44,468 nucleotides of DNA from Psammoneis japonica (taxonomy: Eukaryota), in assembly GCA_008632985.1 (NCBI GenBank), contig QPGO01000354.1, positions 1 through 44,468 of the forward strand, read 5' to 3'. Both the position numbers and the translations under genes were made by a program. A model generated the notes under the pieces. That model worked only from the letters and a program-made list of their open reading frames with translations. It did no database searches and was not told where the DNA came from. This document shows, piece by piece, positions 1 through 39,699 of this stretch. Numbering within the stretch: the first letter of the stretch is position 1; every line of letters begins with the position of its first letter.

Positions 1-719
1 ACAAAGCCTCTCTTGTAGTCCTTGACTAGCGTCTTGTGTGTTTTCTCCAGGTCGTGGTCAACCGATGGATGATTCCCGTATTTAAAATAGGCCTGGAAGT
101 TCTCTTCAGTGTTGTGACCATTGCAGTAGGCTGGAACCCCGTCTAGATGAATACGCCGTAGAGTTTGTATGGTCTTGGGGTCCACCTTCCCCTTCAAAAA
201 GGAAATGATGCAACGAACATGCCGATGTGCTCCGACGTGCGGGCCACCGACCCATCTGACCAATGATGCTAGGTCGCCATCAAAGTGCAATGTCCCTGCT
301 GTAGTCTGGTTAATACGGGTTTGGTTGAGCTCCGCTTCTTCTTCCCAGCCTTTAGGATGTCCCTTGAGAGAGTTAAAATCAACGTCTCCGTATTCCTGAA
401 GGAGACAATGAAGACGCCAAGCATCCGGGACCGTGAGACAAAGGTCCTCCCAGTCCATAACATATCCATCAGATACAGACGAGCTCTCTCCACCGGTGCT
501 AGAAGACAAAAATTCAGACTTCCAAATTGGAAGCAACACATGGCGAAAAGTAGCTTCGGAAGTAAAACATTGACGAACATTGTCCTTGCCGAATGGATTG
601 TCCAATTGAGACCGCACACGGTCAGAGAGATGGTTGCGAACGAACTCTTCTCGTTCAGCCTTCTTCATCGAATTATTAATAGTCGGAACTGGTGCCGGAC
701 TACGTCCTGATGTTGTCAT
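1..719 (-). CDS. N-terminal part of pol (RT-containing ORF) of the DIRS-like element; partial
   Basis: Manual translation from ATG 719 is stop-free to base 1: MTTSGRSPAP...EYGDVDFNSLKG...LHFDGDLASLVRWVGGPHVGAHR...YFKYGNHPSVDHDLEKTHKTLVKDYKRGF. Missing from the ORF track because it has no stop in the window. The true start may be upstream via the 716..967 frame. Confidence 0.65.
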   Translation of the reverse strand, partial: MTTSGRSPAPVPTINNSMKKAEREEFVRNHLSDRVRSQLDNPFGKDNVRQCFTSEATFRHVLLPIWKSEFLSSSTGGESSSVSDGYVMDWEDLCLTVPDAWRLHCLLQEYGDVDFNSLKGHPKGWEEEAELNQTRINQTTAGTLHFDGDLASLVRWVGGPHVGAHRHVRCIISFLKGKVDPKTIQTLRRIHLDGVPAYCNGHNTEENFQAYFKYGNHPSVDHDLEKTHKTLVKDYKRGF

Positions 720-1014
720 TGGAGATAGAACAGGGTAAAACTCGTCAATGTCATCAGACGAAACTGGAGCTGCATCAGGTGCCGCCTGAGCCGCGCCAAC
801 CCCAGGGATACAGAAGCATTCTTGAGGTCTCCAACCCCAAGAGGAGGAATAACATCATCCTCCGTGAACGTAACAGTGTCAGGAGAAGGAATGGCAGCTC
901 CAGAATCCATAATTTTTGCTGGTGGTGCAAGATTAAAGAACACTAGCAACAAAGTTATGTAAGTCAATGATGCATGTCAATGGAACAAATGCCTTAGTTT
1001 ATCACATGATAAGA

Positions 1015-3256
1015 CTAAGAAGACGCACCACTAGGACCCTTTCCTTCAGCAAACGAAAGAGCATTGGACCTCTCAACGAAGTTGATGAGCTCCTTACGTT
1101 TGGCTTCCGGGAGGCTGTGCAGATTTGCCACGTGAGGCTTCTTGCACTTAGAATGGTTGCAACTAAAACCACGAAAAAGGAGCACAAACATTCCTCAGTC
1201 CTGGAGTCAGGTCCCTTCTTTGCCAAAATAGGGATGACAGGGGGCTGGCAAGGGTTGCCGGAGACAACAAGCATGCCAAGCTTCTTGCGGACCTCAATTT
1301 CGTCCGCCGTCAAAGTTGGTGGCGACTTTGGCTTCTTAGCCAGAGACGTGGTAGGATTAGGAGAGTCCGGTGCACGCTTGGTAGTCGTAGAGGACGAGTT
1401 TGATTTCTCGTTAAGCTGGTAGAGGACACACTTGCTCCCAAAAGTTCCGGGAGGGCCATGACCGATGTTGGTCTCCAAATCTTGAATAGATTGGTTAGTG
1501 AGACGCTCGGAGATATCGAGAGCCCGCACGCTGATATCCTGAGATGTACGGATCGCTTCACGGCATTGAGGAATACTTCCAAGCTGGGCAAAGGTACGGA
1601 TGATAGTCTGGATATCATTCAACATGTTGGCAGCAATCTCACGAGTGTTTCCGTTGCTCGTGATCCACTGCTTTCCAATCTCTCCAAAAGCAACCAAGCA
1701 GCATCGAGTTAGCTGCTGCCAAATGAAAGTATCATCAAAGTTCTCAATGAGAGCACTGAACACAAGCCTGAAGTTACTCAGGGCTGCGACCACGTCCGAG
1801 GAATCCTGGGCACGACCGTAGGTGTATAGGATGGACTTCTTGGTCGACTCGGCAGTCGTGGTCTTGGAGTCAGCATTCATAGAGTGGTTACTGTACTCCT
1901 GACCTTCCTCGGCGATCTTCTTGGTATATTCCGAAGTATCCATGTAGGGAGTAAGGAAGTTGAGAAGGTTAATCCTTGATAAAAAGGTAGTAACGGACGC
2001 GTTCGGGGGTTGATCCACGAACTTGAAGCAGCAGATTCCGTCCACGAAAGCCTTGTTGATACAAGCAGGACAAAGGGTCACTACTTGGTCAGAGATGTTC
2101 ATCGATTTTTTCCCATTGAGAGCCGCAGTGACGATCTCGTGGATGAGACGAGCCCGTTCGGTATCACTAGACTCTTGAAGGGCTTCGATAAAAACTTGTT
2201 TGAGTTGCCCCAGTGCGATGGTGTCAGATCCAACCGCCTTGTGGCAGAACATGAGGGAGAAACGGGCAACAATGTCATTAGCCCTCTTCTTGAGGTCCCT
2301 GTCCTTCTTGGATTCGGGGCCTCCACTTGAACAGCAATGGGAGCGTGAGCAGCGGCTCCTTGAGCTGGGGCACCATTTGCGGGATTAGCCGGTTGGCCCA
2401 TCGGAATTGTGGCACCTAGCACCTGCCAGGTCGTATCCAAAAATGTCTTGATGGTGGTTTGGACACGACGGTAGCTATCCGAAAAAGGTGCGACTGCCTG
2501 AAAATTGTTGTCGCAGAAGTTGTAAATGTTGAGACCGATAAAGTCATCAACAACTTGGAGGCCGTCCGCAGCTTGGTCAAAAAGAGGTCCGCCTTCATTT
2601 AGAGAGCAGCTAGTGTTATGCTGTTGGACATAAGCGACGCTTTTTGCCACATGTCAAGTGCAGGGAAGTTGGCCGCCATCGTAGGATAGTTCCCACCGGG
2701 AATAAAGTCCAAGAAGGGCAGGAGCAGCCTGGAGGTGCGGGGAATGCCATCGGAAGAGCAGCAATAACCGGTTGATCATCTTGAGTAGCAGGGTCACCAA
2801 AATGGAGACGCTCGAGGGACGCCGCATCTTGATTACCATCCGCAAGAAGTGGACCTTCAACATCGTCCGGAGGAGTCTCGGCATGAGGTAGGTTGTACGT
2901 GACAACGTCCTCACGACGTACGAGGGTTACGAAGTGTCCTGGAAACGTTGGTGAGTACCTGACATGGGGACGTCGTCCCCGATAGTATCAGAAAAGTTCA
3001 ACAGGAACTTGACTTGGTTCCCATCGTTGACAAAGGGAATCAGCTTTGTAACGGGGATGATGCGGCCCTCATAGAACATGAGGAATTGGTCGAACTGACC
3101 GTAGACATGGTCGGTAAGAGTGCCGTTGGTGGCATCGCGATGGAGGACCAGCTTGGACTGGTTAAGAGTAAACTCAGACTGTGTTCCTGATTGGGAATGA
3201 TGCTTGACAGGAGAAGCTTTACCGCGCTCAATGGCGGCAAGGATGTTGGCGGCCAT
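1015..3256 (-). pseudogene. gag-like ORF1 of the DIRS-like element, broken by several frameshifts
   Basis: Consecutive minus ORF pieces 2927..3256, 2099..2650 and 1002..2252. A frame switch near 1175 gives LC..FRGFSCNHSKCKKPH (CCCH-type finger) and a TAG at 1015-1017. Confidence 0.55.
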
Positions 3257-3929
3257 GGTGGGTCAGAGGCTTGGAAGGAGATGAAGAAGCTGAATGCAAA
3301 AAGGCAAAACCGGGGTTTTGTGAGAGGAAATGAGTTTTTCGAGCGAGGATTTCGACGTAGAATCACGTTGAAAAATCCTGCCGAAGACTCGTGGGTAAGT
3401 CAGTGAGATCTGCTTTACATGACCAGGGTCGTGTGAGCGCAGGTCTACAAGACCAAGTAGTAGACGGAGTATCGTCAAATTTTGACGAACGGAAAGAAAA
3501 TGGAGGGATTTCTGAGCACCGGTCTAAGAGTTTGAAAATCGGGGGAGTTGTGGTCGCGATTTTTGGGCGGGAGGACGTAAGATACGTAGATAGTGTACCA
3601 ATTACGGATTGGGATAGAATGCTTATGGAATCTCCCGGATAAGGTGATTGATCATGAAGATATATATAAGATTGTATCAAACAATGTGCATTGATATTTG
3701 CGTCGAAATTGGAAAAAAGAGGATATCTCGCCTAAGTGCAAAGAATATAAATTCTTACATGTCATAATATGTAGTGAGAATGATTCATGTGAAACCGTTA
3801 CAACGGCCAGAATATTGTATATATGTGAGTATATATAAGATAGATATGAGATCGGTGAACGCAATGGCGGGTGACGAAAGGAAGAGAAAATGACGGTGTG
3901 AAGGCCGATTTTTTGGTAACCTGACAATA

Positions 3930-4410
3930 CAGGGTGGTAGACCTAAGTAACAATAGGCTACATTGATCATATACTCATGTTCTGATATTGAGATCAGATG
4001 AAACGAGGGAATTGTAGTAATGTTTTTGATCAACTGGCTTGTGGATATAATCCAGATCCAGCATAATCAAAGAGAGAAAATTGGCAGATACAGAGCATCC
4101 AATCAATAGAAGGTGTTTATGCCTAGACAGTGACAGGCTATGTAGACAATATACTCGAGTTCTGATATGAGATCAGATGAAACGAGGCAGATTATAATTC
4201 AATCCCGGTCAGTTGGCTTGCGGAGGTTATCCGGATCCAGAATGATCAAAGGGGTGTTTGCGGCGCAGGAGTAATCCCGTTTGCCAAAAACAAAACACCG
4301 GACTGTATTGTTCGCACTCTGATAAGATAAGTCAAGAGTAGCGAGAGCAGTACAGGCATCATGCACAATCGGTTTGGCTTGCGGAACATTTCCGGATCCA
4401 AATCGACGGC
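3930..4410 (+). repeat. three diverged tandem units (~160-180 bp), each able to form three hairpins; candidate structured RNA
   Basis: Anchors TCTGATA at 3981/4161/4318 and TGGCTTG at 4035/4214/4375; stems retained through compensatory changes. Confidence 0.75.
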
Positions 4411-4635
4411 TGATTCATCATGGTTTTACAGGCTCTGAAGATAGTCAAGCCAATCCATGGACATCAATTGGCACCAAAGTACAACTTATGGGCGATTGTG
4501 TAAGGCATGCCAATCGGCAGAAACGACATTTTCAGCATTGTCGGCCCATGTCGGGTCGACGCAACTGATCCCATCGTCACTGGTAGTCCGCCAAACACAA
4601 TGAGGGGAACTGGGGCGGCCTCTCATCGTCGTCCA

Positions 4636-4663
4636 TCTGTCTGTCTGTCTGTCTGTCTGTCTG
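4636..4663. repeat. (TCTG)7 microsatellite
   Basis: Read directly. Confidence 0.95.
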
Positions 4664-5194
4664 CCTTCTACTGCGCGCTACTATCGCGCGGTGACTCCTC
4701 CAAGAACTCAGCCGCCCACAAGGTATCCTCTCCTTGTGCTGGGCCTACTGTACCGTCTTGGCTCTGAGATTCTACCCCGGTTGGCAGACAGACCAATCCA
4801 TCCGCACGCGTTCACGCACACACAATATAATCGTCTGTCTCTGGCCCTGCTCCACGCAAGCCAAGTCTACTGCTACATATCTACACAGGATTGCTGGTCT
4901 TCTACAGTTCTACAAGCTCCACGAGGATGACTGTGAGAGGAAGTAATTTGTGATTACAGCCTACGTTGGGGCAAGGGTGCATTTCCCATGTTTGTTCATC
5001 CCTCCACAGCGCCTGATCGGGTCATCCAACCGACATAAAATAAGAAAGGTTCAGAGGTCTTGTCCACCTCTTGTTAGCTTGTCAGAAGGGGTTTTTAACC
5101 CGTTTTGCACGTAGAATTCTATGGGCCCAATGTGACAAGGAGTCTCACCTAGAACTGGAACCCTGTCTGGTTCCAACACCCACTCAGTTGCACC

Positions 5195-8100
5195 ATGGTC
5201 CTCACCAGGCAGCAACAAATTGATGGCTTTGAGCACATTTTAGGCACTGTTCTGAATCAAGCTGCAGATAGTCCATTGCGCTCCGCCCTCAGCATTGACG
5301 GCACTGACTCATGCCAGGATCTCTTCACTTTTACTCTGACGCAACTGGATGCCCTGGTTTACAACAAAGCACAGATAGCTGTGTTGATTAGCATGTACAT
5401 GGTAAAAGCACATGGCAGCACCAATGTTGGCAATGACCCCAACTTGTTCACACATGAGGAGTTTGCTGACTGTCGTCTTAGTCCTGAGTGCGTAGCATCC
5501 CTCTCCATTGGCACGGCGCCATCTGCTCCCACTCCAGGCTCATCACCCCCCAAACCCCGTGACCCCGTGTGACTGTAAACAAGAAATCAAATGTGACCCA
5601 CTTGCCTTCACAACTCTTAAGTCCAACAAACAGTGGCACATGTGGCACACCTCTGTCATTGTCCAGGCCCACTCGTGGGACGTTGACTGCATCCTCGATC
5701 TGACATACATGCCCTCTACAGTTGAGGACAAGGCCCTGTTTGATGAACAACAGAAGCACATGTTCACTGGATTCCAACACATCTTGTAGAACAACAAAGG
5801 CAATGCACTTGTGCGTGAACATGTCAGCTCCTCTGATGCTCAAGCAGTGTGTTGAAACCTGTCCAAGTGCACCCTTGCATCTGCTTGCACATCCCTGGAG
5901 TCCTCGACCCTTCTCACATACCTCACCACTGCTCGCCTCAGTGATGGCACCTGGAAAGGCTCCACCCATGCCTTCACACTTCACTGGCAGGACCAACTTT
6001 GCAAGTGTGAAGCTCTTGTCCTGAGTGCGGACCACTTCTCTGCTGGCCAGAAATGTGTCATGCTTGAGAACGCCGTCCAACATCAGCCCGCTCCTCCGCT
6101 TTCAATGGTGGGAACCCGTGCACTACCACCTGGATGATTCGGACTGGCCATCTGAATCTGGTGAATTTTGTGGTCACTTTGTTGGCATTGCCGAACACAT
6201 CAGTCATCAAATGACATTCAAGATTCTTTTTGATGACACTCAGAAGATTCTTTCTCCTGATAAGGAATCTGCTGAACCCATCATCAAATCCCAACACAAC
6301 TCCAAGGATTCACCAGATTAACCAGATGGGGAGGCAATCAGGATGCCCAAAATGCAGGTCTTTGACCCCAAGGACATCATCGGATGCACCTTCCTCATGA
6401 AGCCACAAGAGGATGGACAACGCCACAGAGCCGGCATCGTCAAAGCCGTTGAAGACTATGACTGGAAAGTCGGAGACAACCCGGAACTGGTCAAGTTCAT
6501 TTCCTCCATCAACAATGATGAATACGAGGAAGTCCTTTCCCACAATGACATCATGCACCACATCAAGCAAGAAGACGAGGATTCTACCCTCTGGAAGTTC
6601 CGATGCATTTTCTCACATGAAGGACCATTGAGACCTCATGATCCTTCCTGGAAAGGCTCAAGTTACAATGTCATTCTTGAATGGGAGAATGGGGAGATCA
6701 TGTCCAAACCCCTTGCCATCATTGCCAAGGATGACCCCGTCACCTGTGCCATCTATGCGCGTGAGCACGGCCTTCTAGAAACTGAAGGATGGAGACGTTT
6801 TTGCAAGATAGCCCTTCATCAGAAGAAGCTGTTCCGCATGGCCAACCAAGCCAAGTTACGCTCCTTTCGTACTGTGCCACGATACAAGTATGGGCATGAA
6901 GTGCCACGGGACTACAAGCATGCCATGGCCCTTGATGAGTGCAATGGTGACCGCAAGTGGGGAGACGCAACGGACCTCGAGATGACTCAGATTGATGAGT
7001 GCAAGGTCTTCCATGACTGTGGACATTGCAAGGACTCCAGCACTCCATCAGGACACAAGAAGATTGGGGTGCATCTCGTCTGCAACGTCAAACACGATGG
7101 ATGGCACAAAGCATGACTTGTTGCCAATGGACACCTCACCGATGTGCCCATCGACAGCGTCCATTCTGGAGCAGTGTCTCTCCATGGCATGCAAATGATG
7201 ATCTTCCTGGCCGAACTCAACGAACTAGAGACTTGGGCGACCGACATCGGGAATGCCTACCTTGAAGCTACGACCAAGGAGAAACTGTGCGTCATTGCTG
7301 TTCCCGAATTTGGCAAGCTAGAAGGACACATCCTTGTCATACAAAAGGCCTTGTACAGACTCCGCAGCTCTGGCATCAGGTGGCATGAACGCTTTGCCGA
7401 TTGCTTGCATGCCAAAGGTTTCTTCCCATGCAAAGCCGAACCCGACATCTGGCTGCATAGGAATGGTGACCACTGCGAGCACGTGGCAGTGTATGTGGAC
7501 GACCTGGCCTTCGCCATGAAGAATCCCCAGGCTTTTGTGGAAACTCTCATGGAGAAGTACAAGTTCAAGCTCAAGGGCACTGGACCACTGGAGTTCCATC
7601 TTGGTTGTGACTTCACCCGTGATCCAGATGGCACCCTGTGCCTTGCTCCTCGCAAGTACATTGAGTTCATGGTTGACAACTGTGCACGTCTCTTTGGGGA
7701 GAAGCCCTGCACTGATGTGCTTTCACCTCTTGACAAGGGAGACCACCCTGAGCTTGACACCTCCGAATTACTCAGACCGGATGGCATCCACCAATTCCAT
7801 TCCCTGATTGGCTCCCTGCAATGGGCTGTGTCCCTTGGTCGCATCTGCGGATTCCTCTCCAAGATGCGTCATGGTGCCCTCCGAGTGTGCACCGAGGAGA
7901 CCGACTGTTTGGACCTTCCCATGAATGTGTACGATGGAGCCCAATCTGTCTATGGGGAGTTGGAAGAGCTGCTCCCACAAGATGCACCCAAGCCACTTGG
8001 CAAGTTTGTCACCACGACACACTATGTTGATGCGAACTTGTTCCATTGCATGCTCACCGGACGCTCTGTCACCGGCATCCTTCATTTCCTCAAAAAGTTT

Positions 8101-8566
8101 CCAGCTGATTGGTTTTCCAATAAACAGGCAACAGTTGAGACTGCCACATATGGATCTGAGTTTGTTGCCGCAAGGACATGCGTTGAGCAGATCATTGATC
8201 TGCGCATGTCACTTTACGTTACCTTGGCGTCCCCATTCATGAGAAACATGTTACATGTTCGGGGATGACAAGTCGGTTGTGGATAGTGCTGCCATCCCGC
8301 ACTCCAAGTTACACAAGCAACACATCACCCTCTTGTTCCACCATGTATGTGAGGCGATTGCCTCCAGTTTCCTCAAGTTTCATTTCATCGAAGGTTCTCG
8401 CTACCCACCAGCTGACATCCTCAGCAAGCACTGGGGTTACTCCCAGGTCTGGAACCTCCTTCATCCTCTAATGTTTTGGAACTTCGATCCTGAGGCTTTC
8501 AACCAATCTGACCTCGAATCTATCGCTGTTGACCCCTCAAGCAAACTGGGGAGTGACAGGATTTGA
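5195..8566 (+). pseudogene. gag-pol remnant of Copia copy A
   Basis: ORF pieces 5195..5572, 6343..7116, 7144..8268 and 8255..8566 match copy B, with stops, frameshifts and deletions. Confidence 0.9.
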
Positions 8567-8797
8567 ACAAGATTTTAGTTTATCACACATAATTATGTGT
8601 GCTCTTAGTTCGTCCGCGCGCGCGATGCAGTTTGCTTTCGAGCCACTCGGCTCACAAGAATAATGACAGTAGTCCCGACATCAATGACACCAGTCTTTTG
8701 GCTCCTGTAACGGTCTCTGCATGGAGACTCATCTGCTATTTAGACAGCAGCAAGGAGTTGTTGTTTTCTTCCACCCAGTCATCTTCAATTTCTGTCA
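8554..8797 (+). repeat. 3' LTR (at least its 5' part) of Copia family 1
   Basis: Starts TGACAGGA right after the PPT; matches 16535-16779; clear similarity ends at TTCTGTCA, an imperfect inverted copy of the start. Confidence 0.8.
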
Positions 8798-8842
8798 GAC
8801 GCACAATCTTGTCCTGCTCAATTAATGATGGACTTGCCGTTG

Positions 8843-9026
8843 TGAATAAATGCTACCATGATAGCTAAGAATTGGGTGTAAGACAAGACAGAGTGTTGAA
8901 CAGCATCAACAGGTTCTAGAATTGTGAGATGTTATGCTGCTGGGACCACTAAACAAGCAATGGAGGACCAATCGCCAACAGTGCATAAACTGCTTATATT
9001 CGTGACAGTATATCAGCATTTATTCA
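8843..9026 (-). repeat. 3' LTR of Copia family 2 (184 bp)
   Basis: Direct repeat of 15364-15538; TG...CA with 9-bp inverted termini. Confidence 0.95.
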
Positions 9027-9177
9027 GTCCCCTTGAACTGACACTAGCTCCGCTCGGGCCAGATCGACAGACAAATGCAACCTGATGCTGCCCTATTCCA
9101 GGGTGGTATTTTCATTTTGGGGATGGGAAAAGCCACACCTGCGCAGCAAACCCGTTCAGTTTGTCCCCTTTTGGGAC

Positions 9178-12100
9178 TCACCATAGGACATGACTTATGA
9201 TTTCCCGGAGCTTCGGTCCATGCAACAACTTAGTTAGTATGTCTGCTAAATTCGTGCGTCCGTCTTCCCAAGCAATGCGCACTATTCCGGCGGCTTGTGC
9301 CTCACGAGTCCTGTGACAGGCAATTGCATTGTGCTTCTTCTTTAAAGTGGACTCTGGTTTAGTTGAGTTCTTGAAGACAGCTTCATTGTTGCAGAAAACG
9401 TTAGTGGCCCCATCCATGGGGATTCCGAGCATCCGAAGTTTGTAATGCAAGGCTTCAATTTGCTCCACTGCAGTCTTCATAGCCACGAACTCCGACCCAA
9501 AAGTAGAGGACTCTATGGTGTTCTGCCGCTTAGAGTGACACAAGATGGGCGCTCGTTGGATAAATATCAGGATCCCAGTATGGGGACCTGCGTGTCACAT
9601 GGCATCTGGCGTGATCAGCATCGACAAAGCAAGTAGTGGTTATGCTGTTCCCGTGTGCCTCCAGCACATTTGGCGGCATTGGTTCAGCCACGCCAGGGTA
9701 ATATTCTTCCCAATCGCATTTGGTAAAACGACTCTCGTCAAAGACAGGCTCAGTGTCGTCGAACACTAGCGCAGACTTAGAGTGAGCCTTCAAGCATGCG
9801 AAGATATGGAGCACCTCGTCCAGGTGTCCAACTCGTGGTGCCACTAAGTAGGAGGACGTGAGCGAGACAGCAACAAAAATGTCCACCCGCCCTAGTTCAA
9901 CTACCCATCATAGCACACCAATAAGGCCTTGGCAGCAGTTAGCCGTTTTGGCGTTCAACTCAGGTGAACCGTCCAGTTCAGGCCTATGTCCCGAGCTCAA
10001 GGGCGTCGATGCCTTCGTCGGAAGACGCCCATCAGTTTTTCTTAAGCTCTAATTCGACATCAGCTAATGCCCTTTTGACATAAAGGTCAGAGGACATAGC
10101 CCAACGTGTCTTACTGTCCGAGTCAGACAGCTGGCACTTTCTGATCTGGGCGCCTAAGTACTCTTCTGGCTCGCAGACACTTCCATCCTTGAGCGTGTAC
10201 CTAGAGCTCATATAATCCATGACCTTCTGAGGTTCATGGGAGACACACAACAAGTCGTCCATGTAGACAAGTACATGTTCCCAGCACTTGAAGCCATCCG
10301 GCTTAACCGCAGCTCGCATCCAGACATCCGGGTCAGCCTTACAAGACTCAAACCCAGCATCACGCAAAGTAGCTGCCACATGTTCCCTAAACCTTGCACC
10401 TGAAGACTTGAGACCGTGCAAGGTACGGACAATAATCACTGGCCTTCCCTCATTATGCTTCCCAAATTCCAGGCCAGCAGCAGTGTGACACTTTTCCTTA
10501 GTGTGTGCATTCAAGTAGGCATTCTGAACGTCAGCACTCAGGACCTCCAGGTCATTCAGAGCTGCCACAGTGAATGCCATCCTAACGCTGTCACGCGACA
10601 CCACGCTGGAATAGGTCAATTCCTTGGGTGGATCGGTTTGATGGCCTCTGGCCACAAACCTCGCTTTACGTTGGAGGGTGCTCTTGATGTCAAAGATCAT
10701 ATGACAATCAACATGTTTGTACCCGACCGGCACAGTATCGTCATCGCGGAATTCGAACGCAGGCATGACGTTACGCATTTCCTTCTCAATGGCCTTGAAC
10801 CAGAAGTCAGTCCCCATTCTGTTATCTATCTCCATAGCTTCCTTAACAGATTTCGGGAGTTCAATTCCGAACTTATGCGCACGTTTCCAGTAACGCGACT
10901 TGACTTTCTTCAGGATCCTTGACCTGCAACGCAAGACGTCTCGGACCCACCAGTTAAAAGCTGGTTCACCAGCTACTTTGTTCGCCACAGCGTACTCAGC
11001 AACCTCGACTGGGTTGGATTCCTTCAAATCCTTGAGAGGAACCCAGGATGTAGTCCCATCCTTCCATTCAACTTGCAGGTCCCAGCCTACGGTCATCCTC
11101 CAAGGAGCACGCCTACAGGTCTTAGTCGTTATGTACCCGTCATCAGCCGTTACGGCACGGGCATCACGTCGGTGATCGACTATCTCCTTCATAATCTGGT
11201 GGGCATTCCCTTCAGAGTCGATCTGAGCGAATAGGCTCTCTGCAATTACATTAGCAGCACAGGAATCAGTGGATCCGTCAGGAAATTCCACATCGTGTGT
11301 CCTCGAGTCTAGGACAGGGTTGTCGTTCCTAGCACCAATAGGAATGCCATCGCCATCTCGTTTGCGTGCAATGACCCTAGCATGAGTCAGCTTGCCTCCG
11401 CGTGGTAACATGACTTGAGCTGTGAGATACTCATCTAGCCCCTCCGGGGTGTGCTCATCAGCTTCCGGTTTGGAAGCGTCGGGTTCCACGGGTTCAACGG
11501 CATCGTCCCATTCGTCCATGAAGTTGTCAGGGAGTTCAGGGAAATCAGCACTGGCATCCTGTTCCAGGATGTTAAGCCGTTCGATCAAAGCTTGATCGAC
11601 CGATGCAAGATCCGTCTGGATTGCCAGAGTTTTAAGGTCATCCTCCGGTGTGGCCCATGCATCCTTCCGAATGATGGGTTTGCCTGATTCGGGCAAAACA
11701 ATAAATGCCATGTCATCAGTGCAATTGTCAGCCACTCCGAGCCAACGGCCAATGCACTTCTTCTCGTGTGGGAACTACGCCACAGGCATGCAGTAATAGA
11801 CAGGTTGACACCAATCAAAGAGAGAGGGACGAAATGTCAGGTGTTGAACCTGTCACCTCCTCTTCTGGGACTCGTCCTCCCACATCCGACATGCCATTTG
11901 CAATCATGCATCGGATGTCGCATATCCATTTGGCACCATAGGACCAAAGTCGCCTGTGAGCACCAGTCCGGTGTAGAGTCACGCGGACTCTCTTCTTCAA
12001 CTCATGAATGGATGCCTCGGCTGGGTTCTGCCAGGGGCTGTACGGGGTGGACACCTCCTGGTGTATCCTGTGTTCCTTGCAAATCTCTTTGGTCTGGCCT

Positions 12101-16779: not shown

Positions 16780-17042
16780 GATTAACAGTCTTGCTCTTTA
16801 TTGTCCATTGAGCGTTCATCATCGTCATCGAGAAATTTTCAACGACGTGCACCGTTGGTGGTGGAAGTATATATCTACCTCCTTCACTGCTGGATGCTGG
16901 ATTAAATCTACACGTTTGGATTTGTCCAATGCCTCCCATCGTTGGATATATTTATTCAACGGATGTGCAATTCTGCACGCATTCCAATTGAAAGTACCTA
17001 CGTGTTTTCAATACCAGGTTCCCCGTAGAACAGCCAACCACC

Positions 17043-18809
17043 ATGGCGTCTTCTTCCGTCGCTGATGGTAGCCACACCCCTTCCCGTCGTCATGACACGA
17101 CTATGGCCGATGACATTACTGTCGACCAATCATCCATCAAGCCTTCTTCCAAACCGACAGAGCATCAGTTTGAGGAAATTACCCTTCGTTTCGATGTCAG
17201 TGGCCCAGAAGCATCGTGCAAGCCGATGACTCTTGTTGCCGCTCATTTGCAGGTTCTTCAACAAATTCTCTTCACCCACTACAAGGACGTGAAGATCATG
17301 GACAATAATAACAACCAAATTACCCACGTCAACGTTGCCGAATGGGTTTCTTCTCTTCAACACGAAAGATGCTTTGTTATTTCAATGACTTGCAAAGGTG
17401 AAAAACGTCCTGTGACTCACCGCTCATGCCACCGGATCCTTGCGAAAATTCCTCTTAATGACATTTGCTCTCATCCTCACGTCCAGAGTATTTTGGATTC
17501 TAACAATGTGGGTATGAAACGTCATTATTGGAATGAATCAGATGTCGAAACGGCCTCCCCAGCACACTACATTGCCACCGCAACTAAACATGCTCCAGTC
17601 GACGAAGCTACAAAAATGTTCCTCCATGATCTTGGGAAATACCAGACAAAAATGCCAAAGTTCAGGTTGGTGCCCACCTCTGTTCGTGCCGATAACAAAG
17701 GTCTCGCTCCTCCCCTACGTGCTGCTGCCTTCGCTGTTGAGGTGTTAATGGAAGACTGTTGCTCAGCCGGGAAGGCCTTGCTTTATGTGTCCAAAAAGTT
17801 CCCGACACAAATTGTTATGGCCAAGACCCGGTGCATCTCCCCCCTCGCCTTTTACAACGCGGTCAAAATCCAAGCTCATCGGAATGAAGATACTTTCGTC
17901 GTTCCACTGCTGAACGCCACTCTGGACATTATGTTCTATTTTGAGAATCAGCTCAAGGCATTAAAAGACATGAAAGCAATCTTCCCATCAAGCACCATTG
18001 CCGGCCGCTACAACATCCTTGTCAACCGTCTCAAGTTCAAGTCTGCTAGGGATGCCATTTCTACGTGCGCAATGAACCTCATCCCAACAATTTCGAAAGA
18101 AGCCTGTCCCACCCCACTCTTTAGGGATCCTCCTCAAGTCTCCGGCATGATGGAAGAGATGTCGGACAGCAGCAAGTCTGTTGCATCAGCTAGCATCCAC
18201 AGTTTAGAGTCTCTTACCTTTTCTGACATTTCGCCTTTGACAGACAACAACGCTTCAGGAAATCATCAACAACCACCACCGTTAAAATTGGCGGGCCACA
18301 GTTATGATGGCAGAGGCCGAGGTTTCCCCGGCCGTGGTGCTCAACAAGGCTCAGCTGTTCCTCCCCACATCTGCACCCAGTGCTCCCAGACCTCGCCCTT
18401 GCTGCCCGGATGTTCCAGTCACCCCGGCATGATTTCTCCTCCGTGCTCACATGCACAGGCCACACAGTCCACCACCAGTTCCATTACCTCCATGCAGCTG
18501 GCAGACGTCCAACGCAACATGTCTCAGATGCAAGAGAAAACCAAGAGAGCTTTGGAGGATTTACGTTCTCAACACTCACGAGATGTGGAGGCGATTGACA
18601 ACACATTCCCGCAACAACACGCGCAGGACATCGCAGCATTACAGGCTCAGTACTCTCAACAACTTGCGGGTATGCAGGACCAGATGAATCAGATAGTCCA
18701 CCTGCTCCAAGCAAATCATCCAACCCAAACATCTGCAAGGAAACGTCCAAATCACATGGAAACACCAGATCGCTCGGCTGATTCACGTGACAAGGAGAAG
18801 GATTTTTAG
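17043..18809 (+). CDS. LINE ORF1 protein (588 aa, C-terminal Q-rich coiled coil)
   Basis: Open ORF 76 bp inside the 5' TSD and directly upstream of ORF2. Confidence 0.8.
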   Translation: MASSSVADGSHTPSRRHDTTMADDITVDQSSIKPSSKPTEHQFEEITLRFDVSGPEASCKPMTLVAAHLQVLQQILFTHYKDVKIMDNNNNQITHVNVAEWVSSLQHERCFVISMTCKGEKRPVTHRSCHRILAKIPLNDICSHPHVQSILDSNNVGMKRHYWNESDVETASPAHYIATATKHAPVDEATKMFLHDLGKYQTKMPKFRLVPTSVRADNKGLAPPLRAAAFAVEVLMEDCCSAGKALLYVSKKFPTQIVMAKTRCISPLAFYNAVKIQAHRNEDTFVVPLLNATLDIMFYFENQLKALKDMKAIFPSSTIAGRYNILVNRLKFKSARDAISTCAMNLIPTISKEACPTPLFRDPPQVSGMMEEMSDSSKSVASASIHSLESLTFSDISPLTDNNASGNHQQPPPLKLAGHSYDGRGRGFPGRGAQQGSAVPPHICTQCSQTSPLLPGCSSHPGMISPPCSHAQATQSTTSSITSMQLADVQRNMSQMQEKTKRALEDLRSQHSRDVEAIDNTFPQQHAQDIAALQAQYSQQLAGMQDQMNQIVHLLQANHPTQTSARKRPNHMETPDRSADSRDKEKDF

Positions 18810-18881
18810 ACAGGGGTTGGACTTCGCCGCCTCCACCCCCTCAAACAATCAGGCATCCACCTGACATCTCATCTCCTACAA

Positions 18882-21800
18882 ATGAGTCCCTCACCATCTC
18901 CCATTTATTCCGCCGCACCGCCAAGCACCGCAAATTCTCCTACAACACTGCATCACCTGATAGTCAGAGCTCTAAGCCCCAGTCTTCTCCTCGGAGGAGC
19001 ATGGCCCAACATGAGCAGTGACTCCATTAGTGCATCCTATATCAACAAATGGCAATCACTCTTGAATGGCACCAGTAATGGTGCGTCAAGCACCCGAAGC
19101 ATTGACTTTTCTTGGCTAACATCCAATGATCCTGTTGGTGATGATCTCCATCCTAAGTTACCCCATCATACTCGTCTGTACGCATTCAACGCTAACAGTT
19201 GTAAATTAGACAAAAGAGGCGGTGACATCCATGAGCATTGTCAAATAGCGAAAGAGATCCAAGCAGACGTCGTGGGCATTTCGGAAGTCTGTCTAGACAC
19301 TGCGCAGTATGACATTCTGTCAGTGTGTCGATCTGCCGTTTACAATGCAATTTCCAATGGACGTGGCACCTTCTCATGCAGCTCAACCCCCTTCACCACT
19401 CAGTACAAACCTGGTGGTACGGCCCTCTTGTCGGGGAACTCCATCTCGGCACGATGCCGCAGCCAAGAATCAGACCCATTGGGCCGTTGGTCTATTCAGA
19501 TATTTGACGGACGCAACGGTAAGCAAGTCATGTTCATTTCGTGCTACAGAGTTTGTGCGAAAAATCAAAGGACCCCTGGAAAGACTACGGCTTATGCACA
19601 ACAAGCAGCCCTTTTACGACAAAACGGCAGACAGTCTATTGACCCCAGGAAGGCCTTTTGTACGGAATTATCTTGTCACCTACAAGAGTTCTTGGTCGAC
19701 TCCAATCGTGAAGTCATCATTTGCGGAGATTTCAACACCGATTTCTCGATTGACACGGACACACTCGCCTCCCTCGCCCAGCGTTTTACCCTTTCAGATG
19801 TGTTATATAATTTGATGGGCAGCAATGAATTTTCCACATACACGCGAGGACGGAAACGCCTGGACTTCGTGCTTGCTACCCCCGGTGCTTTGTCTGCTGC
19901 TAGGTTCGGCGGATATGAAGCATTCGGTTGTCGTATTACGCCAGACCATCGTGCTTATTTCATGGACTTTGACATGTTGGCCTTGTTTGGGAATCCTACC
20001 GTTGACTTACCCAAGGCCAGCTGCAGGGACATCCAGTCTTCGTCTCAACCCCAAGTGACGACCTGCTTGGACGCCATCGGACCGATGTTAGCCAGCAGAC
20101 AAATGTTGGCTCGCTCACAGGCGCCACTTGATCAAGCCGTCCCCGATCATGAACTAGCAGAAAGGTTAGATCGAGACATGTTGCAGTTCTCTTTGGCTGC
20201 TGCAAAGAAGTGTCGGATCCACAGAGAACCAGAGTGGTCGGCAGAATTGTCACAACTGCGGCATCGGGTGCACATTCTTAGCCGAGTGGTCTCAATGATG
20301 CGCACTCGCCTGGATCAAGTTAGCCATATCCGTACTATCTGAGACAAGCTACAAGGTTCCTTTATCATCCCAGACACCCTGGAGGACTGTCTGCGTGAGC
20401 TCCGCGCCGCCCAAGCTGAATGTAGACTAGTTGCTGCTGATAGCGTCGTACACCGCGAAAATGAAATGGCCAAGAAGATTGCTTCACTCGAATTGGACGG
20501 CACCAAGGAGTCCAAACGCAAAGCGAAGATTATCAGGAATGTCCGCAAGGCCGAAGAAACCAAGAAACTTTTCCGTAAGATTGAACACTGCAAATTGGAT
20601 AGTGACAACGGCGTCAACAGCGTGCAGGTGCCCCGGAATCCTGCAGTGAATCCAAAAGAGTGTGAGGACTGGGTTACCATCGATGCCCCAGACGATGTGG
20701 CCTCAGCCATCTGCCACCGTAACCAACACAATTTCGGTCAAGCACACGGTACTCCACCTACCATTCCTCCACTGTCCGTCAACCTCGGTTACGAGGCAGA
20801 CACGATTTTCGCTGACCTCATCTTAGACGGTGAATATGACACCACCCAACTCAATGAGGCTACATCTCGTTTTATTCAGCACCTCGAATGTCGTTCCCCT
20901 GTTGCCGTCTCCTCTTACCTCACGGCAAATGATTTGGAGGGTAAGTTGAAGTCATGGAAGGAAACCACCTCTACGTCCATCAAGTCGGGATTGCTCCTCG
21001 GTCACTGGAAGGCCATGTATGCTTCCCACGCTCATTCACGTGCCAAGACAAAGGACGGAGATCCGACGGATGCCTGCATCTGCCTAGATAATGTGCAGCA
21101 GACCTTGACACAAATCCAGCCTAATTTGCTCAATTGTGCCTTGCGCTGGGGATATTCCCATGACCGATGGAGGGACATTGTGAACGTGATGATATTCAAG
21201 GAAGCAGGTAACAACAAGAATCACCGTTTGCACGTTATTCATGTCTACCAGGCAGATTTCCAACTGATCTTAAGTGTCCTGTGGCGTTCGTTGGCTCAGA
21301 ACATGGAGCATCACAAATTGTACAACCCAGGTATTTATGGTGCGCGTCCTTTCCTGCATGCTAACGTCCCAGTATATTTGGAAGAATTGATGTTGGAAAT
21401 CAGCAGGGTGTATCGGAAAATGGCCATCCACAGCAACAGCGACTGTACCTCCTGTCACGACAGGAACATTCCTGCTCTAGCAGCGCTCGAAAGTCGAAGC
21501 AACGGCATGCCCAAAACAGAGACAAAGTCAGCTGCATCTGCCCTCCTACAAGCTCGGTACTGGCTGAAAACAGCCATCGGGTTGTCTCCTACCTCTTACT
21601 CCCACTCTTTGGATTTTCCCATCTACGGCACAGGACAAGGCAGTGGAAACTCTCCACTGTGCTGGAACCAGGTGTGTAACAGTTTGTTTAATCTCTTTGA
21701 CCAAAAAGCTCACGGAGCTTTCTTTGAGTCTCCTGATCACTCCGTATCACTCAAGATCTACAACCGAGGATACGTGGATGACACGTCCAAGCAGGTGAAT

Positions 21801-24800
21801 GACTTCACGGCATCCCCCCAGCCTGATGGCCTGGAATTGGCATTCAAAATGCAGCAAGACGATCAACTTTGGTGCAACCTATGGAACGCAGCAGGACACG
21901 AGCTGGAACTCCCGAAGTGCTCCTTTCATGTCATTGAATGGAACTTTACGGAGGATGGCGAGCCTTACCTTCACGCATACAACGATGAAATCGTAATTGA
22001 CATTTCCTCCGCAGATCGGTCTGACAGCAGGCCCAGCACACAACTATCGCCTTACTCCTCCCACAAGACTTTGGGCCACTATAAAGCTCTGGCTGGAACG
22101 CAAAAGATGCACCACAAGGCCTTAAAGAAGAAGAGTGACGATGCAGCATTGTTTCTTCGATCATGCCTGTTAGATCGGCATGAAGCATGGACCCATTACT
22201 TCACGTGCTACCTGGCAGCAATGACATGCACCCTCCCGAACACCCATTTTCTCCCGAAGGAACTGTTGGAGATCCAGAGGAAAGCCATGCGTACGATCTT
22301 TGCGAAATGTGGATATAATCGCAACACGAAACGAGATGTCCTATTCGGCCCATATTCCCTTGGAGGTGGCGGTTTCCAGTCCTTGGATGTCGAACAAGGA
22401 GTCAGCCAAGTCATGCAGTTCTTGTCTCACTGGAGAGGTGTCGGCCAGCCACATGCCCTTTCACAGATCGCAGCATCTTGGATTCAGTTCCATCTGGGTA
22501 CAGGTGTCAGCTTTTTGAAGGATGTGCACTCCCGCCTACCACATTCTGAGTCGAAATGGTTCAGTTCACTTAGATCCTTCCTTTCTCGCATCAATGCTTG
22601 CTTCGACCTGGATGAACCTGGAGTCCTTCCGCTTCAACGAGATAATGATCAATGTCCCATGGACATAGCACTCGATTCGGGAATTTTCTCTGACGAAGAG
22701 GTCAGGTGGGTCAACTGTTGTTGCTTGTTCCTCAATGTCCTCACAGTTTCGGACATCACCTCACCCGACGGCAGAGCACTTGACAAGCACAAGTTCCAAG
22801 GACACACCTCAGTTCTCAGTAGCATTTCGACATTGAACCAAGTCGAACAGGCAGCCCCATCTGCTCGAGCATGGAAACAATGGCAACGTGCCTGCAGGTT
22901 GTTATGCAAGAATGATGATTTAGAACTTCGAGGTCCCCTTGGTTCTTGGGCAATTCCAGCAACGGAGATGCGCATGACCATTCCAGCGTGCCATGAACCC
23001 AAAGAAGACTATTTGTATGTACAGTCAGACTCGGGGTTCCAGGTTTTCCCCATGTCTCATGGCTCCGCCCAATCTATCGACCCTCTCAAGGTTGTACCCG
23101 ATTTGTCTCCAAGGGCTTCTCCAGCGATGGTAGATGCTACCAAGGATGGCAGGTGGTGCATTGGACACACTGGATCTTCATTTGACCTACCTCCCACCAC
23201 ACCAGTTCCTTCGGACTTTCAAGCTTGGTTGTCATCATTGCCGCAATGGGAATCATTCCTCTTCGCCAACGTTCATATGCACGCATCCGTCTTCGAGATT
23301 GCACACTGCTTGCAGATGTGCCGGTCAACAGCGGGCAGCGATGGGTCGGTCATCGGACAGGCAGCAATTTTCGGCTGGACTCTCACCATCGATGGTACGG
23401 CACTGGTAGACTGCACTGGTCCAGTGTTCGGTTTTCGCCCAACTTCTCACAGAGCAGAAGCATGCAGAGTACTGTCATATCTGAGATTCTTAATTCGGGT
23501 GATGGAATGTTGTTTTACAAGCTGTCCTCTGGGAAGCGACTTATGCTGCGATAACTCGGCTATCGTCCACCGTGTATCGAAGTTCGAGACACCGCTGTCA
23601 AGCTCCCCTGTTCAGGATTCAGACTCCGTGCTGCTCGACTTTCACCGCAGAAGTCACACAGCAAACACCATATCCGCTGATTGGGATGTTATTACCGAAA
23701 TCTACTCGTCAATGGAAACGATGTCTACATCATCTACTGAGAACACTCCATGCACTTCCGTCACTGTTCAGTGGATCAAAGTACACCAAGATTCTAATGC
23801 TCCATATGAGACACTTTCTCTACCTGCTAAAGTGAATGTCTGCGCAGACAGGATCGCCGGACAATGCCACGGAAAGTTCCAGAGCGATACCCCACTCGCG
23901 CCGTGAATGCCTCATTGTTCCGCAAACCCAGTCTTGAACAATTCCACAGTGGGATCTAAGTTTAAGCAGGTGATGCGATACGAAGCGTCTCGCCCGGCAC
24001 TTGTTCAGCACATGAAAGAGAAATACTCATGGACAGATGAAGTATTTCAGTCTATAGATTGGGCGTCTCACTCCAAACTCATGTCGAGGAACATCAGATG
24101 AAAGGTTAGTGCGGTCAAATTGGTTCAAGATTTACTTCCTACCAAGAAGATAGCGCATCGGTACAACCCAAATCGCCCAGATGCTTGTGTACATTGCTCA
24201 CACCCAATGGAGGATCGTGACCGCATTTTAAAATGTCCTCATAACGAATCATGGCGACGCACTTTCCTTCAGGGCTCACGTAAGAAATGCGACGACATCT
24301 ACACGCCCCCTCCGTTGCGAGATCTTCTCTTGGAAGCCCTCGAAGCTTGGTTTCACGATCAAACGGTATTTCCGGAGGACTTGCACCACAGTGTTATTTC
24401 GGTGTTCTATTCCCAAGATCTGACAGGATGGAGGCACCTGTTTAACGGCAGATTTGCCGTCCAATGGAATGCAGCACACGCTTTGCACCTCAGGAACACA
24501 GTACTTCCTTCTGATGTGGAGGAGAACATCCGGAGATTGGATTGGTCTGCTACCATGGGAAGCTTCATTTGGTCCCAATGGTGGGAACTATGGGATCAAC
24601 ACAATGATGCAGTACATGGTCACGATGCTGAGACAAGGAAGTCAGCCCAACGGAGAGATGCAGAGGCGGAAGTCAAGGTAATTTATTCCCGTTCAAGTGA
24701 ATGTCTTGTAAAGGACAGGTCCGCTTTGTTTGACTCGGTGGAAGAACACTTAACTCATTCAACTCGCAGATTGCGAAATTGATTGGAAATGGTGAGACCC

Positions 24801-34591: not shown

Positions 34592-35123
34592 ACCTACAAC
34601 AGACAGATTACAAGATACACTTATGAGAGAGGGAATGCGCGCTACGCAGCACTCCACACACTTGCACCAGCAGTCACGACCAAGAACAGCAAACACGAGC
34701 TGCGGCGTTGGCAGCGCAACCCATTTTACGACGATGAGCAGGTGCTTACCACGAGCACACAAATAAATGTGCCGCACAAGCACTAGAGGCTGCTCACAGT
34801 GCTGTTCTTTTGCTCCTGTGAGCTGCTGGAGTACGTATCCTCCAAGCGCGGTCAGGAAAAGGATTGGGTCTGCCAATCACTGCACAACATTCTTTTTGTA
34901 CAGTACAGTACATACATTGTTACGATAGCGCGCGGTAGATAGAGTAGAGAGGCGAGGCTCGTCCGTTCGTCCGGTCTGACCTACTAGGGCCCTACCGGGG
35001 TCTGGACAGCTGGCTGTCTGAAGAAATTTGTGTATGTAGGATTTGTACTGAACAGTCTGTCGTCGGTAGGTGAACGCTGGCTGAATATGGTACCCTACTA
35101 CTAGAGCACACACCGCGGTAATA

Positions 35124-35626
35124 AGCCATGTGCACTGGTACAAAAATCACGTAGAAATTTTACGTAGAAAAAATTATAAAAATTAGGGTTTGGGCCGATT
35201 TTTTTCTCGTGCTTCTACCGTGCTTCTCTGCTCCACCGACGCCTCAAGGAATCGTTTTCCCCTGAAACCATTGACACTTTACATGATGACTTTTACATAA
35301 GTAACACGATTCTGTGCGTGAACACTTCAAAATTCCATTTTCAGAAATTCGATCAACACTTCCCTACGGTCCCACCACGGTAAACATTTTCCAATGAAGG
35401 AATTTTGCCGAACGGTGGACATCGTCGTGTTTGTCATCAAAAAGTAAGTACGCAAAGTGTCAACCGTTATGACTGAAATCGATTCCTTGAGGTCGTGGCC
35501 TATTTTTCGCAAAGCACGGGAAAAGCACGACGAACAAGATATTCTACGCGAATTTTCTACGTGAGTTTTGTACCAGAAATCGGCCCAAACCCTGTTTTTC
35601 GGGACTCATAACCCCTGCACATGGCT
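35124..35626. mobile_element. MITE / foldback non-autonomous DNA transposon (~503 bp)
   Basis: Termini AGCCATGTGCA / TGCACATGGCT with TA on both sides; several long subterminal inverted blocks; no coding capacity. Confidence 0.85.
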
Positions 35627-35698
35627 TATAGGCCTTGCCTTATTACTGGTACGTCTTTTTCATAGTCTACTATCCTACGGTACGGTACCGTACGTTGA

Positions 35699-36255: not shown

Positions 36256-36259
36256 AAGT

Positions 36260-38170: not shown

Positions 38171-38224
38171 TTTAACACCCCACCATCAGCAATTTTGGGT
38201 GATCTTCTGAATGCCATTTTGCAT

Positions 38225-38838: not shown

Positions 38839-38869
38839 GGGAAGCTTGGGCTCAGTGGATTGAGTGGGT

Positions 38870-39390: not shown

Positions 39391-39690
39391 GACAATCGTG
39401 GATGCGTACAACGGTCAGGTCAATCACACAGAATTGATGGGAAGTCTAAAGATGCAAATATGATCAACAGATGATGGTGACACAACATAAGATGTCAACA
39501 TTGATCATATCTGGACAATCTGCTGTCACGATTAGATTCTCTGAAAGGAAGGCCTTTGCTCTGTAGGAGCAGCACCACAGCTTCAGGCCATTGAGAACTC
39601 CTTCAGAGAATCCCAAAATTGTAGTGTAAAATCTAATCTCATAATTTCCACTTTTCATGATTTGTTCTACTTTCATTTACCCTCGTTCTA
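39391..39690 (-). repeat. dispersed non-coding repeat, copy 2 of 3 (inverted, partial)
   Basis: Reverse complement of ~15620-15910. Confidence 0.8.
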
Positions 39691-39699
39691 TTTTGAATG

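What the first reader, a model, noticed from the sequence alone, without database searches (positions are those of the whole stretch)
3930..4410. Tandem array of three covarying multi-hairpin units beside a DIRS-like retroelement
Seen: three units with diverged sequence but retained stems. Hairpin 3: CTGG-cttg-TGGA(tataa)TCCA-gat-CCAG (4034), TTGG-cttg-CGGA(ggtta)TCCG-gat-CCAG (4213), TTTGG-cttg-CGGAA(cat)TTCCG-gat-CCAAA (4373). The CTTG/GAT internal loop is invariant while the pairs covary. Hairpin 2: CTC..TCTGAT(loop)ATCAGA-tgaaac-GAG in units 1-2, and CTGTATTG..ACTCT..AGAGT..CAGTACAG in unit 3. Hairpin 1: CCTA/TAGG, GCCT/AGGC, and GGA-GTAA-TCC (GNRA loop). Several G-U wobbles work only on the plus strand, antisense to gag/pol. 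Inference: selection on single-stranded structure, such as a repeated protein-binding or packaging motif, a processed ncRNA array, a ribozyme, or ssDNA replication/recombination signals. I cannot match it to a known RNA family, and membership of the element is not proven.
Basis: partly seen in the sequence, partly recalled or inferred. Interest (0 to 1): 0.78.

Follow-up and report, generated by a model that had tools for sequence, protein, structure and literature searches.

The report
Hairpin array in diatom Ngaro retrotransposon
A diatom jumping gene carries, near its start, a variable row of folded-hairpin modules whose base pairs evolve together, probably a docking site used while the element is single-stranded during copying.

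Summary
The array is real and lies inside, not beside, a Ngaro-type tyrosine-recombinase retrotransposon of a diatom. It sits in the 1.5-kb leader between the A1 repeat (ends at 4767) and gag; the element reads on the minus strand. I found 70 units in 27 of 43 sources, 1–5 per element. Other pairs covary: 10 of 11 same-branch double changes keep Watson-Crick pairing, against 0 of 25 and 1 of 3 in slid controls. Apical loops drift while the CTTG/GAT internal loop persists. No Rfam family matched. Strand is unresolved overall (G·U 20 vs A·C 16), but hairpin 3 leans to the antisense strand. Best reading: a multivalent docking array on the single-stranded first-strand cDNA (0.38). Close rival: a packaging signal on the sense RNA (0.30). 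A distant Ngaro lineage has an unrelated ~185-nt hairpin array in the same position. No expression or biochemical evidence.

The parts
4530..4767 (-). A1 terminal repeat; 5' end of the Ngaro element
   Evidence: Many homologous copies stop at or near 4767; the same sequence recurs as A2 near the 3' end of L022, L023, L026, L036, L037, L044
3257..4767 (-). 1511-nt leader with 25 upstream ATGs; contains the array
4255..4415 (.). Unit 3 (type B, outermost unit; its H3 lies 330-368 nt from the A1 start in 13 copies): linker hairpin H0 (4253-4299), extended H2 (4303-4355), H3 (4369-4406)
4110..4255 (.). Unit 2 (type A): H1 4120-4140, H2 4154-4186, H3 4207-4247
3930..4076 (.). Unit 1 (type A): H1 3937-3961, H2 3974-4007, H3 4028-4068
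4034..4061 (+). H3 core: outer stem, CTTG/GAT internal loop, CGGA/TCCG-type stem, variable 5-nt apical loop. On plus it reads as one helix with C·T, T-A, T·G and a bulged G; on minus as a C-loop-like GCAAG*CC
1002..3256 (-). gag-like ORF1, split over several frames in this copy; a relative's ORF1 ends in a CCCH-type zinc finger
   Evidence: L089 matches PF00642 at E=0.0008, just under the curated cut-off
1..854 (-). N-terminal part of the RT-RNase H ORF, cut by the contig end
4768..8811 (+). copia-type LTR retrotransposon sequence flanking the element (probable insertion target)

Best explanation
The array is a cis-acting, multivalent docking platform that folds when the element is single-stranded, most likely on the antisense strand, i.e. 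the first-strand cDNA. SHOWN: units sit at a fixed distance behind A1, vary in number (1-5), keep their stems by compensatory change, keep the internal loop and let apical loops drift. INFERRED: reverse transcription leaves a single-stranded antisense cDNA (shown for DIRS-1, not for Ngaro), with the array 350-840 nt from the cDNA 3' end. Each H3 would fold into a long imperfect helix with a bulged G, a T·G wobble and a pyrimidine mismatch, read by an element-encoded protein (tyrosine recombinase, Gag or RT). Several copies would raise avidity and help protect the cDNA, start the second strand or assemble the circularisation/integration complex. An antisense RNA could carry the same fold. Unit number and mosaic arrays would arise by RT template switching or unequal exchange.
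For: Tree-aware covariation, 53 units: at non-CpG pairs 11 same-branch double changes (null mean 2.5), 10 of them Watson-Crick to Watson-Crick; slid controls 0 of 25 and 1 of 3. H3 alignment of 30 units: 91.5% of cells paired; pair 3-33 takes four Watson-Crick types; pair 7-29 is GC 20, GU 5, AU 5, never AC. Transversions per column: stems 0.4-1.0 (outer O4-O5 2.25), internal loop 0.7, apical loops 3.5-4.2. In the plus-strand register the two loop T's face only purines (TA 26/TG 4; TG 27/TA 2); CTCG and ATTG variants make new Watson-Crick pairs on plus. H3 core pairs: G·T on plus 19, A·C on plus 5, counted as units. Background C>T and G>A are symmetric (0.071 vs 0.069), so the 5:0 at pair O1 is not strand bias. 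DNA folding z -3.8 plus vs -2.5 minus. DIRS-1 accumulates single-stranded antisense cDNA whose Exo I resistance was put down to possible secondary structure (PMC7192593, passages). L026 keeps both repeats and five units but has no ORF hits.
Against: Over all anchored non-CpG pairs one-sided changes are G·U 20 vs A·C 16; pairs S1 (2:3) and I4 (1:5) favour the sense strand. The 19:5 count uses a pair set chosen after seeing the data, counts units rather than events, and gives p=0.06 against a 0.6 background. A>G exceeds T>C on plus in the background (0.092 vs 0.054). RNAalifold on the decayed copies gave the lower energy to the sense strand for 4 of 7 unit types, and a strand-neutral mismatch census was uninformative. 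Relatives at about 45% RT identity lack an array, so it is not needed across the clade. L123 keeps only the core, without outer stem or H2. No binding, expression or cDNA data exist; most copies are dead and hypermutated.
Confidence: 0.38

Rival explanations
1. Psi-like packaging/dimerisation array on the sense genomic RNA, bound by the element's zinc-finger Gag. On this strand the H3 loop reads as a C-loop-like motif (GCAAG*CC with an AU bulge). A role in bypassing the 25 upstream AUGs or in nuclear import is a sub-variant.
For: Position just behind the 5' repeat and before gag matches retroviral packaging regions (PMC3592414, passages). A relative's ORF1 has a CCCH finger. The loop-closing pair 8-26 covaries: CG 26, UA 2, UG 1 of 30. 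C at position 2 with a G-C closing pair is the structure-keeping combination named in PMC9516175 (passages), and GCAAU*AC-type loops are accepted C-loops (PMC4551918). The unrelated array of L096-L098 has cUGCGg/cUACGg loops and GC/GU/AU variation on the sense strand. Pairs S1 and I4 favour sense.
Against: The L028/L031 variant puts U at C-loop position 6, which PMC9516175 says cannot form the key pair, and makes O1 an A·C on sense. Three other units lose the closing pair. O1 shows G·T on plus 5 times and A·C never. H3 apical loops are not UNCG/GNRA and not self-complementary.
Confidence: 0.3
2. Internal promoter/enhancer monomers acting as double-stranded DNA (like mouse L1 monomers, recalled): a dyad CGG-N7-CCG plus GGCTTG site repeated behind A1.
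For: An element that starts at A1 needs an internal promoter (inference). The apical spacer is 5 nt in 44 of 53 units. The core survives twice in L123 without outer stem or H2, at about the usual distance from an A-like repeat. Copy number varies.
Against: Compensatory transversions in outer stems and four pair types at one position are not expected of a duplex site. Spacers of 2-4 nt occur in type C units. Several hairpins per unit covary.
Confidence: 0.15
3. Neutral product: tandem duplication of palindrome-rich DNA, with apparent covariation from CpG/TpA decay and quasi-palindrome template switching.
For: CpG decay fully explains the inner H3 pairs. TpA is depleted to o/e 0.06-0.20 in 7 of 7 copies measured. 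CTGA/TCAG vs CCAA/TTGG can come from one hypermutable dinucleotide. Single units fold only modestly.
Against: Palindrome correction would erase the asymmetric internal loop, which is among the slowest-changing parts. Non-hypermutable pairs covary, with wobble intermediates. Position is fixed.
Confidence: 0.08
4. Array of self-cleaving ribozymes or processed small ncRNAs, possibly from an antisense transcript.
For: Tandem ~170-180-nt structured units; tandem ribozymes occur in other retroelements (recalled).
Against: No Rfam match near a gathering score in the window or 19 related loci. Recalled hammerhead, hairpin, twister, pistol and HDV core motifs are absent on both strands. The units are strings of separate hairpins without a conserved junction, and cleavage here would cut A1 off the genomic RNA.
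Confidence: 0.09

Closest known systems
Ngaro retrotransposons (order DIRS), e.g. those of Cafeteria burkhardae (PMC8547959, passages)
   Same: A1-[gag, RT/RH, YR]-B1A2B2 layout, no methyltransferase seen, stramenopile host
   Different: About 8.8 kb with a 1.5-kb leader holding a structured array. None of the passages read mention such an array. The RT and YR are too divergent for Pfam cut-offs.
DIRS-1 single-stranded antisense cDNA intermediate (PMC7192593, passages)
   Same: Tyrosine-recombinase retroelement with no known primer; gives a single-stranded antisense molecule on which the array could fold
   Different: DIRS-1 has inverted repeats and an ICR; no hairpin array was mentioned in the passages read; ss cDNA is not shown for Ngaro
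Integron attC sites (PMC3053210, passages)
   Same: Strand-specific imperfect hairpin with a bulged base and variable tip, repeated in an array, beside a tyrosine recombinase gene
   Different: No RYYYAAC/GTTRRRY cores (AAC and GTT together in 2 of 54 units), one bulged base instead of two, shorter than 57 nt, no cassettes; recombination junctions are at the A/B ends. Works-like analogy only.
Retroviral Psi / Ty1 5' cis-acting region (PMC3592414, passages)
   Same: Multi-hairpin region at the 5' end before gag
   Different: Built of 1-5 repeated modules; no palindromic kissing loop; H3 leans antisense
C-loop motif (PMC4551918, PMC9516175, passages)
   Same: Sense-strand H3 loop reads G-CAA-G opposite C-C inside a hairpin
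   Different: The bulge lies outside positions 6-7; the one shared variant breaks the key non-canonical pair; no 3D or probing test
TOC1 76-bp and kangaroo 89-bp internal repeats; mouse L1 5' monomers (all recalled; searches found no paper on the first two)
   Same: Variable tandem repeats in the 5' region of a retroelement
   Different: Not known to me as covarying multi-hairpin units; no sequence comparison made

Membership tests
Ngaro retrotransposon | Split direct repeats A1...B1A2B2, internal repeats downstream of YR | tested here: met
   L022, L023, L026, L044 show both repeat pairs; L036 shows A1/A2, L037 the 3' set. The window copy is cut by the contig end, so only A1 is seen there.
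Ngaro retrotransposon | RT and RNase H in ORF2 | tested here: met
   Conserved LADDD..FGDN..HVDD and GDAS..HIN..DN..ADD.SR blocks in the alignment (motif reading from own knowledge). Pfam gave no hit.
Ngaro retrotransposon | Tyrosine recombinase ORF3 with H-x-x-R and catalytic Y | tested here: met
   HSLRVG / HSIRVG and W.SDAF.AY in L041/L097; weak PF00589 hit, E=0.038, in L090; tblastn of this ORF hits L022, L023, L030, L036, L037, L044
Ngaro retrotransposon | No methyltransferase domain (separates it from PAT/DIRS) | tested here: met
   ORF2 ends about 60 aa after RNase H in 6 of 6 full-length proteins; no Dam hit. Not tested with a dedicated profile.
DIRS-1-like element | Inverted terminal repeats and ICR | tested here: not met
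   The repeats are direct
Any Rfam family, including self-cleaving ribozymes | Covariance-model match at gathering score | tested here: not met
   No hit overlaps the array in window 1-12000 (E<=5). One sub-threshold miRNA hit outside the array in 19 loci. None in L096-L098.
Self-cleaving ribozyme (new class) | Site-specific self-cleavage | not testable with these tools
   Needs an in vitro assay
attC site | RYYYAAC and GTTRRRY cores | tested here: not met
   AAC and GTT together in 2 of 54 units (definition)
attC site | Two extrahelical bases on one side; 57-141 bp | tested here: not met
   One bulged G; hairpin about 30-40 nt
C-loop | Long strand N-C-A-A-N flanked by two Watson-Crick pairs | tested here: met
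   Sense strand G-CAA-G opposite C-C in 45 of 54 units; closing pair CG 26, UA 2 of 30
C-loop | All natural variants keep the trans WC/Hoogsteen pair 2-6 | tested here: not met
   L028/L031 have C2 with U6; L033, L044, L061 lose the closing pair (rule)
Psi-type packaging signal | Gag binding and selective encapsidation | not testable with these tools
   Only position and a CCCH finger in a relative are available

The most novel reading that the evidence does not exclude
Ngaro elements replicate through a single-stranded cDNA that carries a lineage-specific array of bulged DNA hairpins read by the element's own tyrosine recombinase or RT. This would be a eukaryotic structure-specific ssDNA recognition system, working like attC sites or single-strand origins, and it would explain how primer-less, PPT-less YR retrotransposons start the second strand or load the recombinase. 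Such arrays would have arisen at least twice (this family and L096-L098).
Probability: 0.22. Interest if true: 0.86.

Novelty: new variant of a known kind. Interest (0 to 1): 0.6.

Why it matters
How tyrosine-recombinase retrotransposons prime, package and convert their cDNA is largely open: PMC7192593 states that no primer is known even for DIRS-1. No internal cis-element of Ngaro elements turned up in my searches (listings only for most papers). A short motif with natural compensatory variants gives ready-made mutants to test which intermediate is recognised and by which protein. The case is also a warning that CpG and TpA decay in diatom repeats can mimic covariation.

Tried and rejected
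Rfam at E-value threshold on the window, 19 related loci and L096-L098: nothing relevant. Recalled ribozyme cores: absent. No RNA holder was listed; this is no evidence on expression. The first metagenome scan found no relative; the second found 48 loci, none with a unit by nhmmer. The H3 covariance model over 47 distant loci (16 own-genome, 31 of the 48 metagenome loci) gave nothing better than E=0.39. H3 pattern in viral contigs: 0. Pfam and PDB sequence searches did not recognise RT or YR. RNAalifold on decayed copies, decay-corrected unit consensuses and a strand-neutral mismatch census did not settle the strand. The RT tree failed to print; only pairwise identities are used. A whole-genome search with the RNA model was not available, so genome-wide counts rest on DNA and pattern searches and are lower bounds. 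Rejected: GNRA loop as a conserved feature; GGATCC/TCCGGA palindromes as required dimerisation sites (both are broken in natural variants); attC membership. Paper searches on TOC1/kangaroo repeats and on TpA depletion in diatoms returned nothing. The original C-loop paper is not held. No supplements were read; they may hold repeat descriptions I did not see. Three look-ups of earlier findings returned nothing.

Full report
CONTEXT. The window is contig C356 of a 91-Mb eukaryote genome. The named relatives of its ataxin-2-like gene whose organism could be read are diatoms, so the host is a diatom by inference. Minus-strand ORFs at 1-3256 encode a gag-like protein in pieces and the start of an RT. 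Many homologous copies end at or near window 4767. Longer copies show the first ~230 nt again near the 3' end, between two copies of a second repeat: A1...B1A2B2, about 8.8 kb in L022. ORF2 has RT and RNase H blocks and no room for a methyltransferase. ORF3 has the HSLR..Y signature. By the definitions in PMC4157794, PMC3783388 and PMC8547959 (passages) this is a Ngaro element. The array lies in its 1511-nt leader, which has 25 upstream ATGs.

DISTRIBUTION. A profile grown from window units 1-2 found 70 units in 27 of 43 sources (42 own-genome loci plus the window), 1-5 per element. The 16 empty sources were fetched for their more distant RT. Of 26 unit-bearing loci, 22 have A1 upstream, 16 have ORF hits, 25 have an A repeat or ORFs, and L035 has neither. 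A genome-wide H3 pattern gave 33 matches (reversed control 0); 32 lie in these loci. The other, L123, has an A-like repeat and two H3 cores in unrelated flanks and no ORF hit within 8 kb. The outermost H3 lies 330-368 nt from the A1 start in 13 copies measured. L026 has both repeat pairs and five units of mixed types but no ORF hits; this fits a cis requirement but is one copy.

ANATOMY (window plus strand). Type A units carry H1, H2 (CTCG..CTGAT/ATCAG..CGAG), in most copies a small GGATTG/CAATCC hairpin, and H3. Type B, always outermost, has a linker hairpin, an extended H2 and H3. A divergent type C occurs in the L036 group. H3 is the most conserved part.

MUTATION CONTROL. Most copies are heavily decayed: TpA o/e 0.06-0.20 in 7 of 7 copies measured, against 0.64 for the window copy, with CpG loss in some. 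Both processes give TG or CA and can mimic compensation. For the inner H3 pair the two arms change independently (27 CG, 13 TG, 9 CA, 5 TA of 54; Fisher p=1.0), and CpG pairs show no same-branch excess (2 vs 5.1 expected). These tests used 54 (or 53) of 67 parsed units: I dropped four out-of-register units and near-duplicate loci (L023, L058, L065, L067).

REAL COVARIATION. On a unit tree, ten non-CpG pairs gave 11 same-branch double changes (null 2.5), 10 keeping Watson-Crick pairing. Sliding partners by one gave 0 of 25 and 1 of 3. The 25 shows that same-branch counts alone are inflated, so the Watson-Crick fraction is the statistic that matters. Some changes at O4/O5 may be paired insertions rather than substitutions. 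On 30 hand-picked units, 91.5% of cells pair, and O1 is GC 20, GU 5, AU 5 (relatedness is not corrected there). Stems and the internal loop change 0.4-1.0 transversions per column (O4-O5 2.25), apical loops 3.5-4.2, all columns 2.0 (anchors were chosen for conservation). Conserved stems, a conserved asymmetric loop and free tips point to a single-stranded fold read by a protein. Palindrome correction would have removed the loop.

STRAND. For plus (antisense): O1 wobbles 5:0 with symmetric C>T/G>A background; the loop T's face only purines; most loop variants keep or improve pairing in the plus register; H3 core G·T 19 vs A·C 5 (post hoc set, units not events, p=0.007 against 0.5 and 0.06 against 0.6); folding z -3.8 vs -3.2 as RNA and -3.8 vs -2.5 as DNA. 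For minus (sense): pairs S1 and I4, a C-loop-like reading with a covarying closing pair, RNAalifold energies for 4 of 7 types, and window unit 1 alone. Overall events are 20:16. Verdict: a lean to antisense for H3, open for the rest.

RELATIVES. A metagenome scan gave 48 loci of this clade. None has our unit (one search covered 31 of them). L096-L098 (one family, 33% RT identity) carry 2-5 tandem ~185-nt multi-hairpin units of unrelated sequence in the leader, placed behind the A repeat in L098, then a 163-nt duplication. Their hairpins have cUGCGg/cUACGg loops and one GC/GU/AU pair on the sense strand (UNCG reading from own knowledge), though an automated census there was neutral, 11:10. In nine other leaders examined, including relatives at about 45% identity, only short repeats were found. 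Arrays thus look lineage-specific and recurrent.

MECHANISM. Two single-stranded forms exist in the cycle: the sense RNA and the first-strand cDNA. DIRS-1 accumulates single-stranded antisense cDNA with no known primer (PMC7192593, passages). I put 0.38 on an antisense docking array for an element protein, 0.30 on a sense-RNA packaging array bound by the zinc-finger Gag, 0.15 on duplex promoter monomers (5-nt spacer in 44 of 53; core-only L123), 0.09 on ribozyme or ncRNA, and 0.08 on neutral origin. Structure, position and linkage are shown; the molecule, the partner and the step are inferred.

KNOWN FAMILIES AND NOVELTY. The element is a member of Ngaro. The array matches no Rfam family, fails attC membership and meets only part of the C-loop test. 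It works like a retroelement 5' cis-signal built from repeated modules. Tandem 5' repeats in TOC1, kangaroo and mouse L1 are recalled, not checked (empty). Searches listed no paper on structured leader arrays in Ngaro elements; the library lacks most subscription papers and I read no supplements. Papers were seen as search passages only: PMC4157794, PMC7192593, PMC8547959, PMC3783388, PMC3592414, PMC9516175, PMC4551918, PMC2441787, PMC2952876, PMC3053210.

VERDICT. A real, selected, apparently undescribed structured array inside a Ngaro leader; a new variant of a known kind; interest 0.6. The ssDNA-recognition reading (probability 0.22) would deserve 0.86.

Noticed in passing
L022, L023, L036, L038, L041, L044, L048; window 4768-8811 and 35000-44468: Transposon copies show extreme TpA loss (o/e 0.06-0.34), read as TA to TG/CA with Tyr to Cys/His in ORFs, partly uncoupled from CpG loss (L041: TpA 0.13, CpG 0.84). 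It looks like a repeat-targeted adenine mutation process; one paper search found nothing.
   Followed up: partly
L097:40-960, L096:385-1130, L098:640-1030: Unrelated ~185-nt multi-hairpin array in the leader of a distant Ngaro family, with two UNCG-type hairpins per unit that can also refold into one long hairpin; a 163-nt duplication follows.
   Followed up: partly
L123:1480-2060: 5' remnant with an A-like repeat and two H3 cores 210 nt apart in otherwise unrelated, purine-rich flanks; no ORFs nearby.
   Followed up: partly
L026:970-7936; L030:561-3649: Probable non-autonomous derivatives: L026 has both repeat pairs and five mosaic units without ORF hits; L030 joins the leader to the end of pol and YR.
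   Followed up: partly
L034 (about 1450 onward); window 4768: Nesting with copia elements: one copy is cut by copia sequence just inside the array, and the window copy abuts copia sequence.
   Followed up: no
L038-L043, L055: A second, younger-looking Ngaro family (A repeats 97-99% identical in those compared) with long open frames despite TpA depletion, and no array.
   Followed up: partly
window 35135-35576: Nested inverted repeats (35-nt and 68-nt arms), possibly a MITE-like element.
   Followed up: no
window 16992-24782; 32025-34876: A probable LINE-like element with an endonuclease domain (+), and an ataxin-2/Pbp1-like gene (-) with LsmAD, SM-ATX and PAM2 domains.
   Followed up: partly
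L090:6590-7020: Short ATGGCCATG-rich palindromic tandem repeat directly upstream of gag in another Ngaro relative.
   Followed up: no
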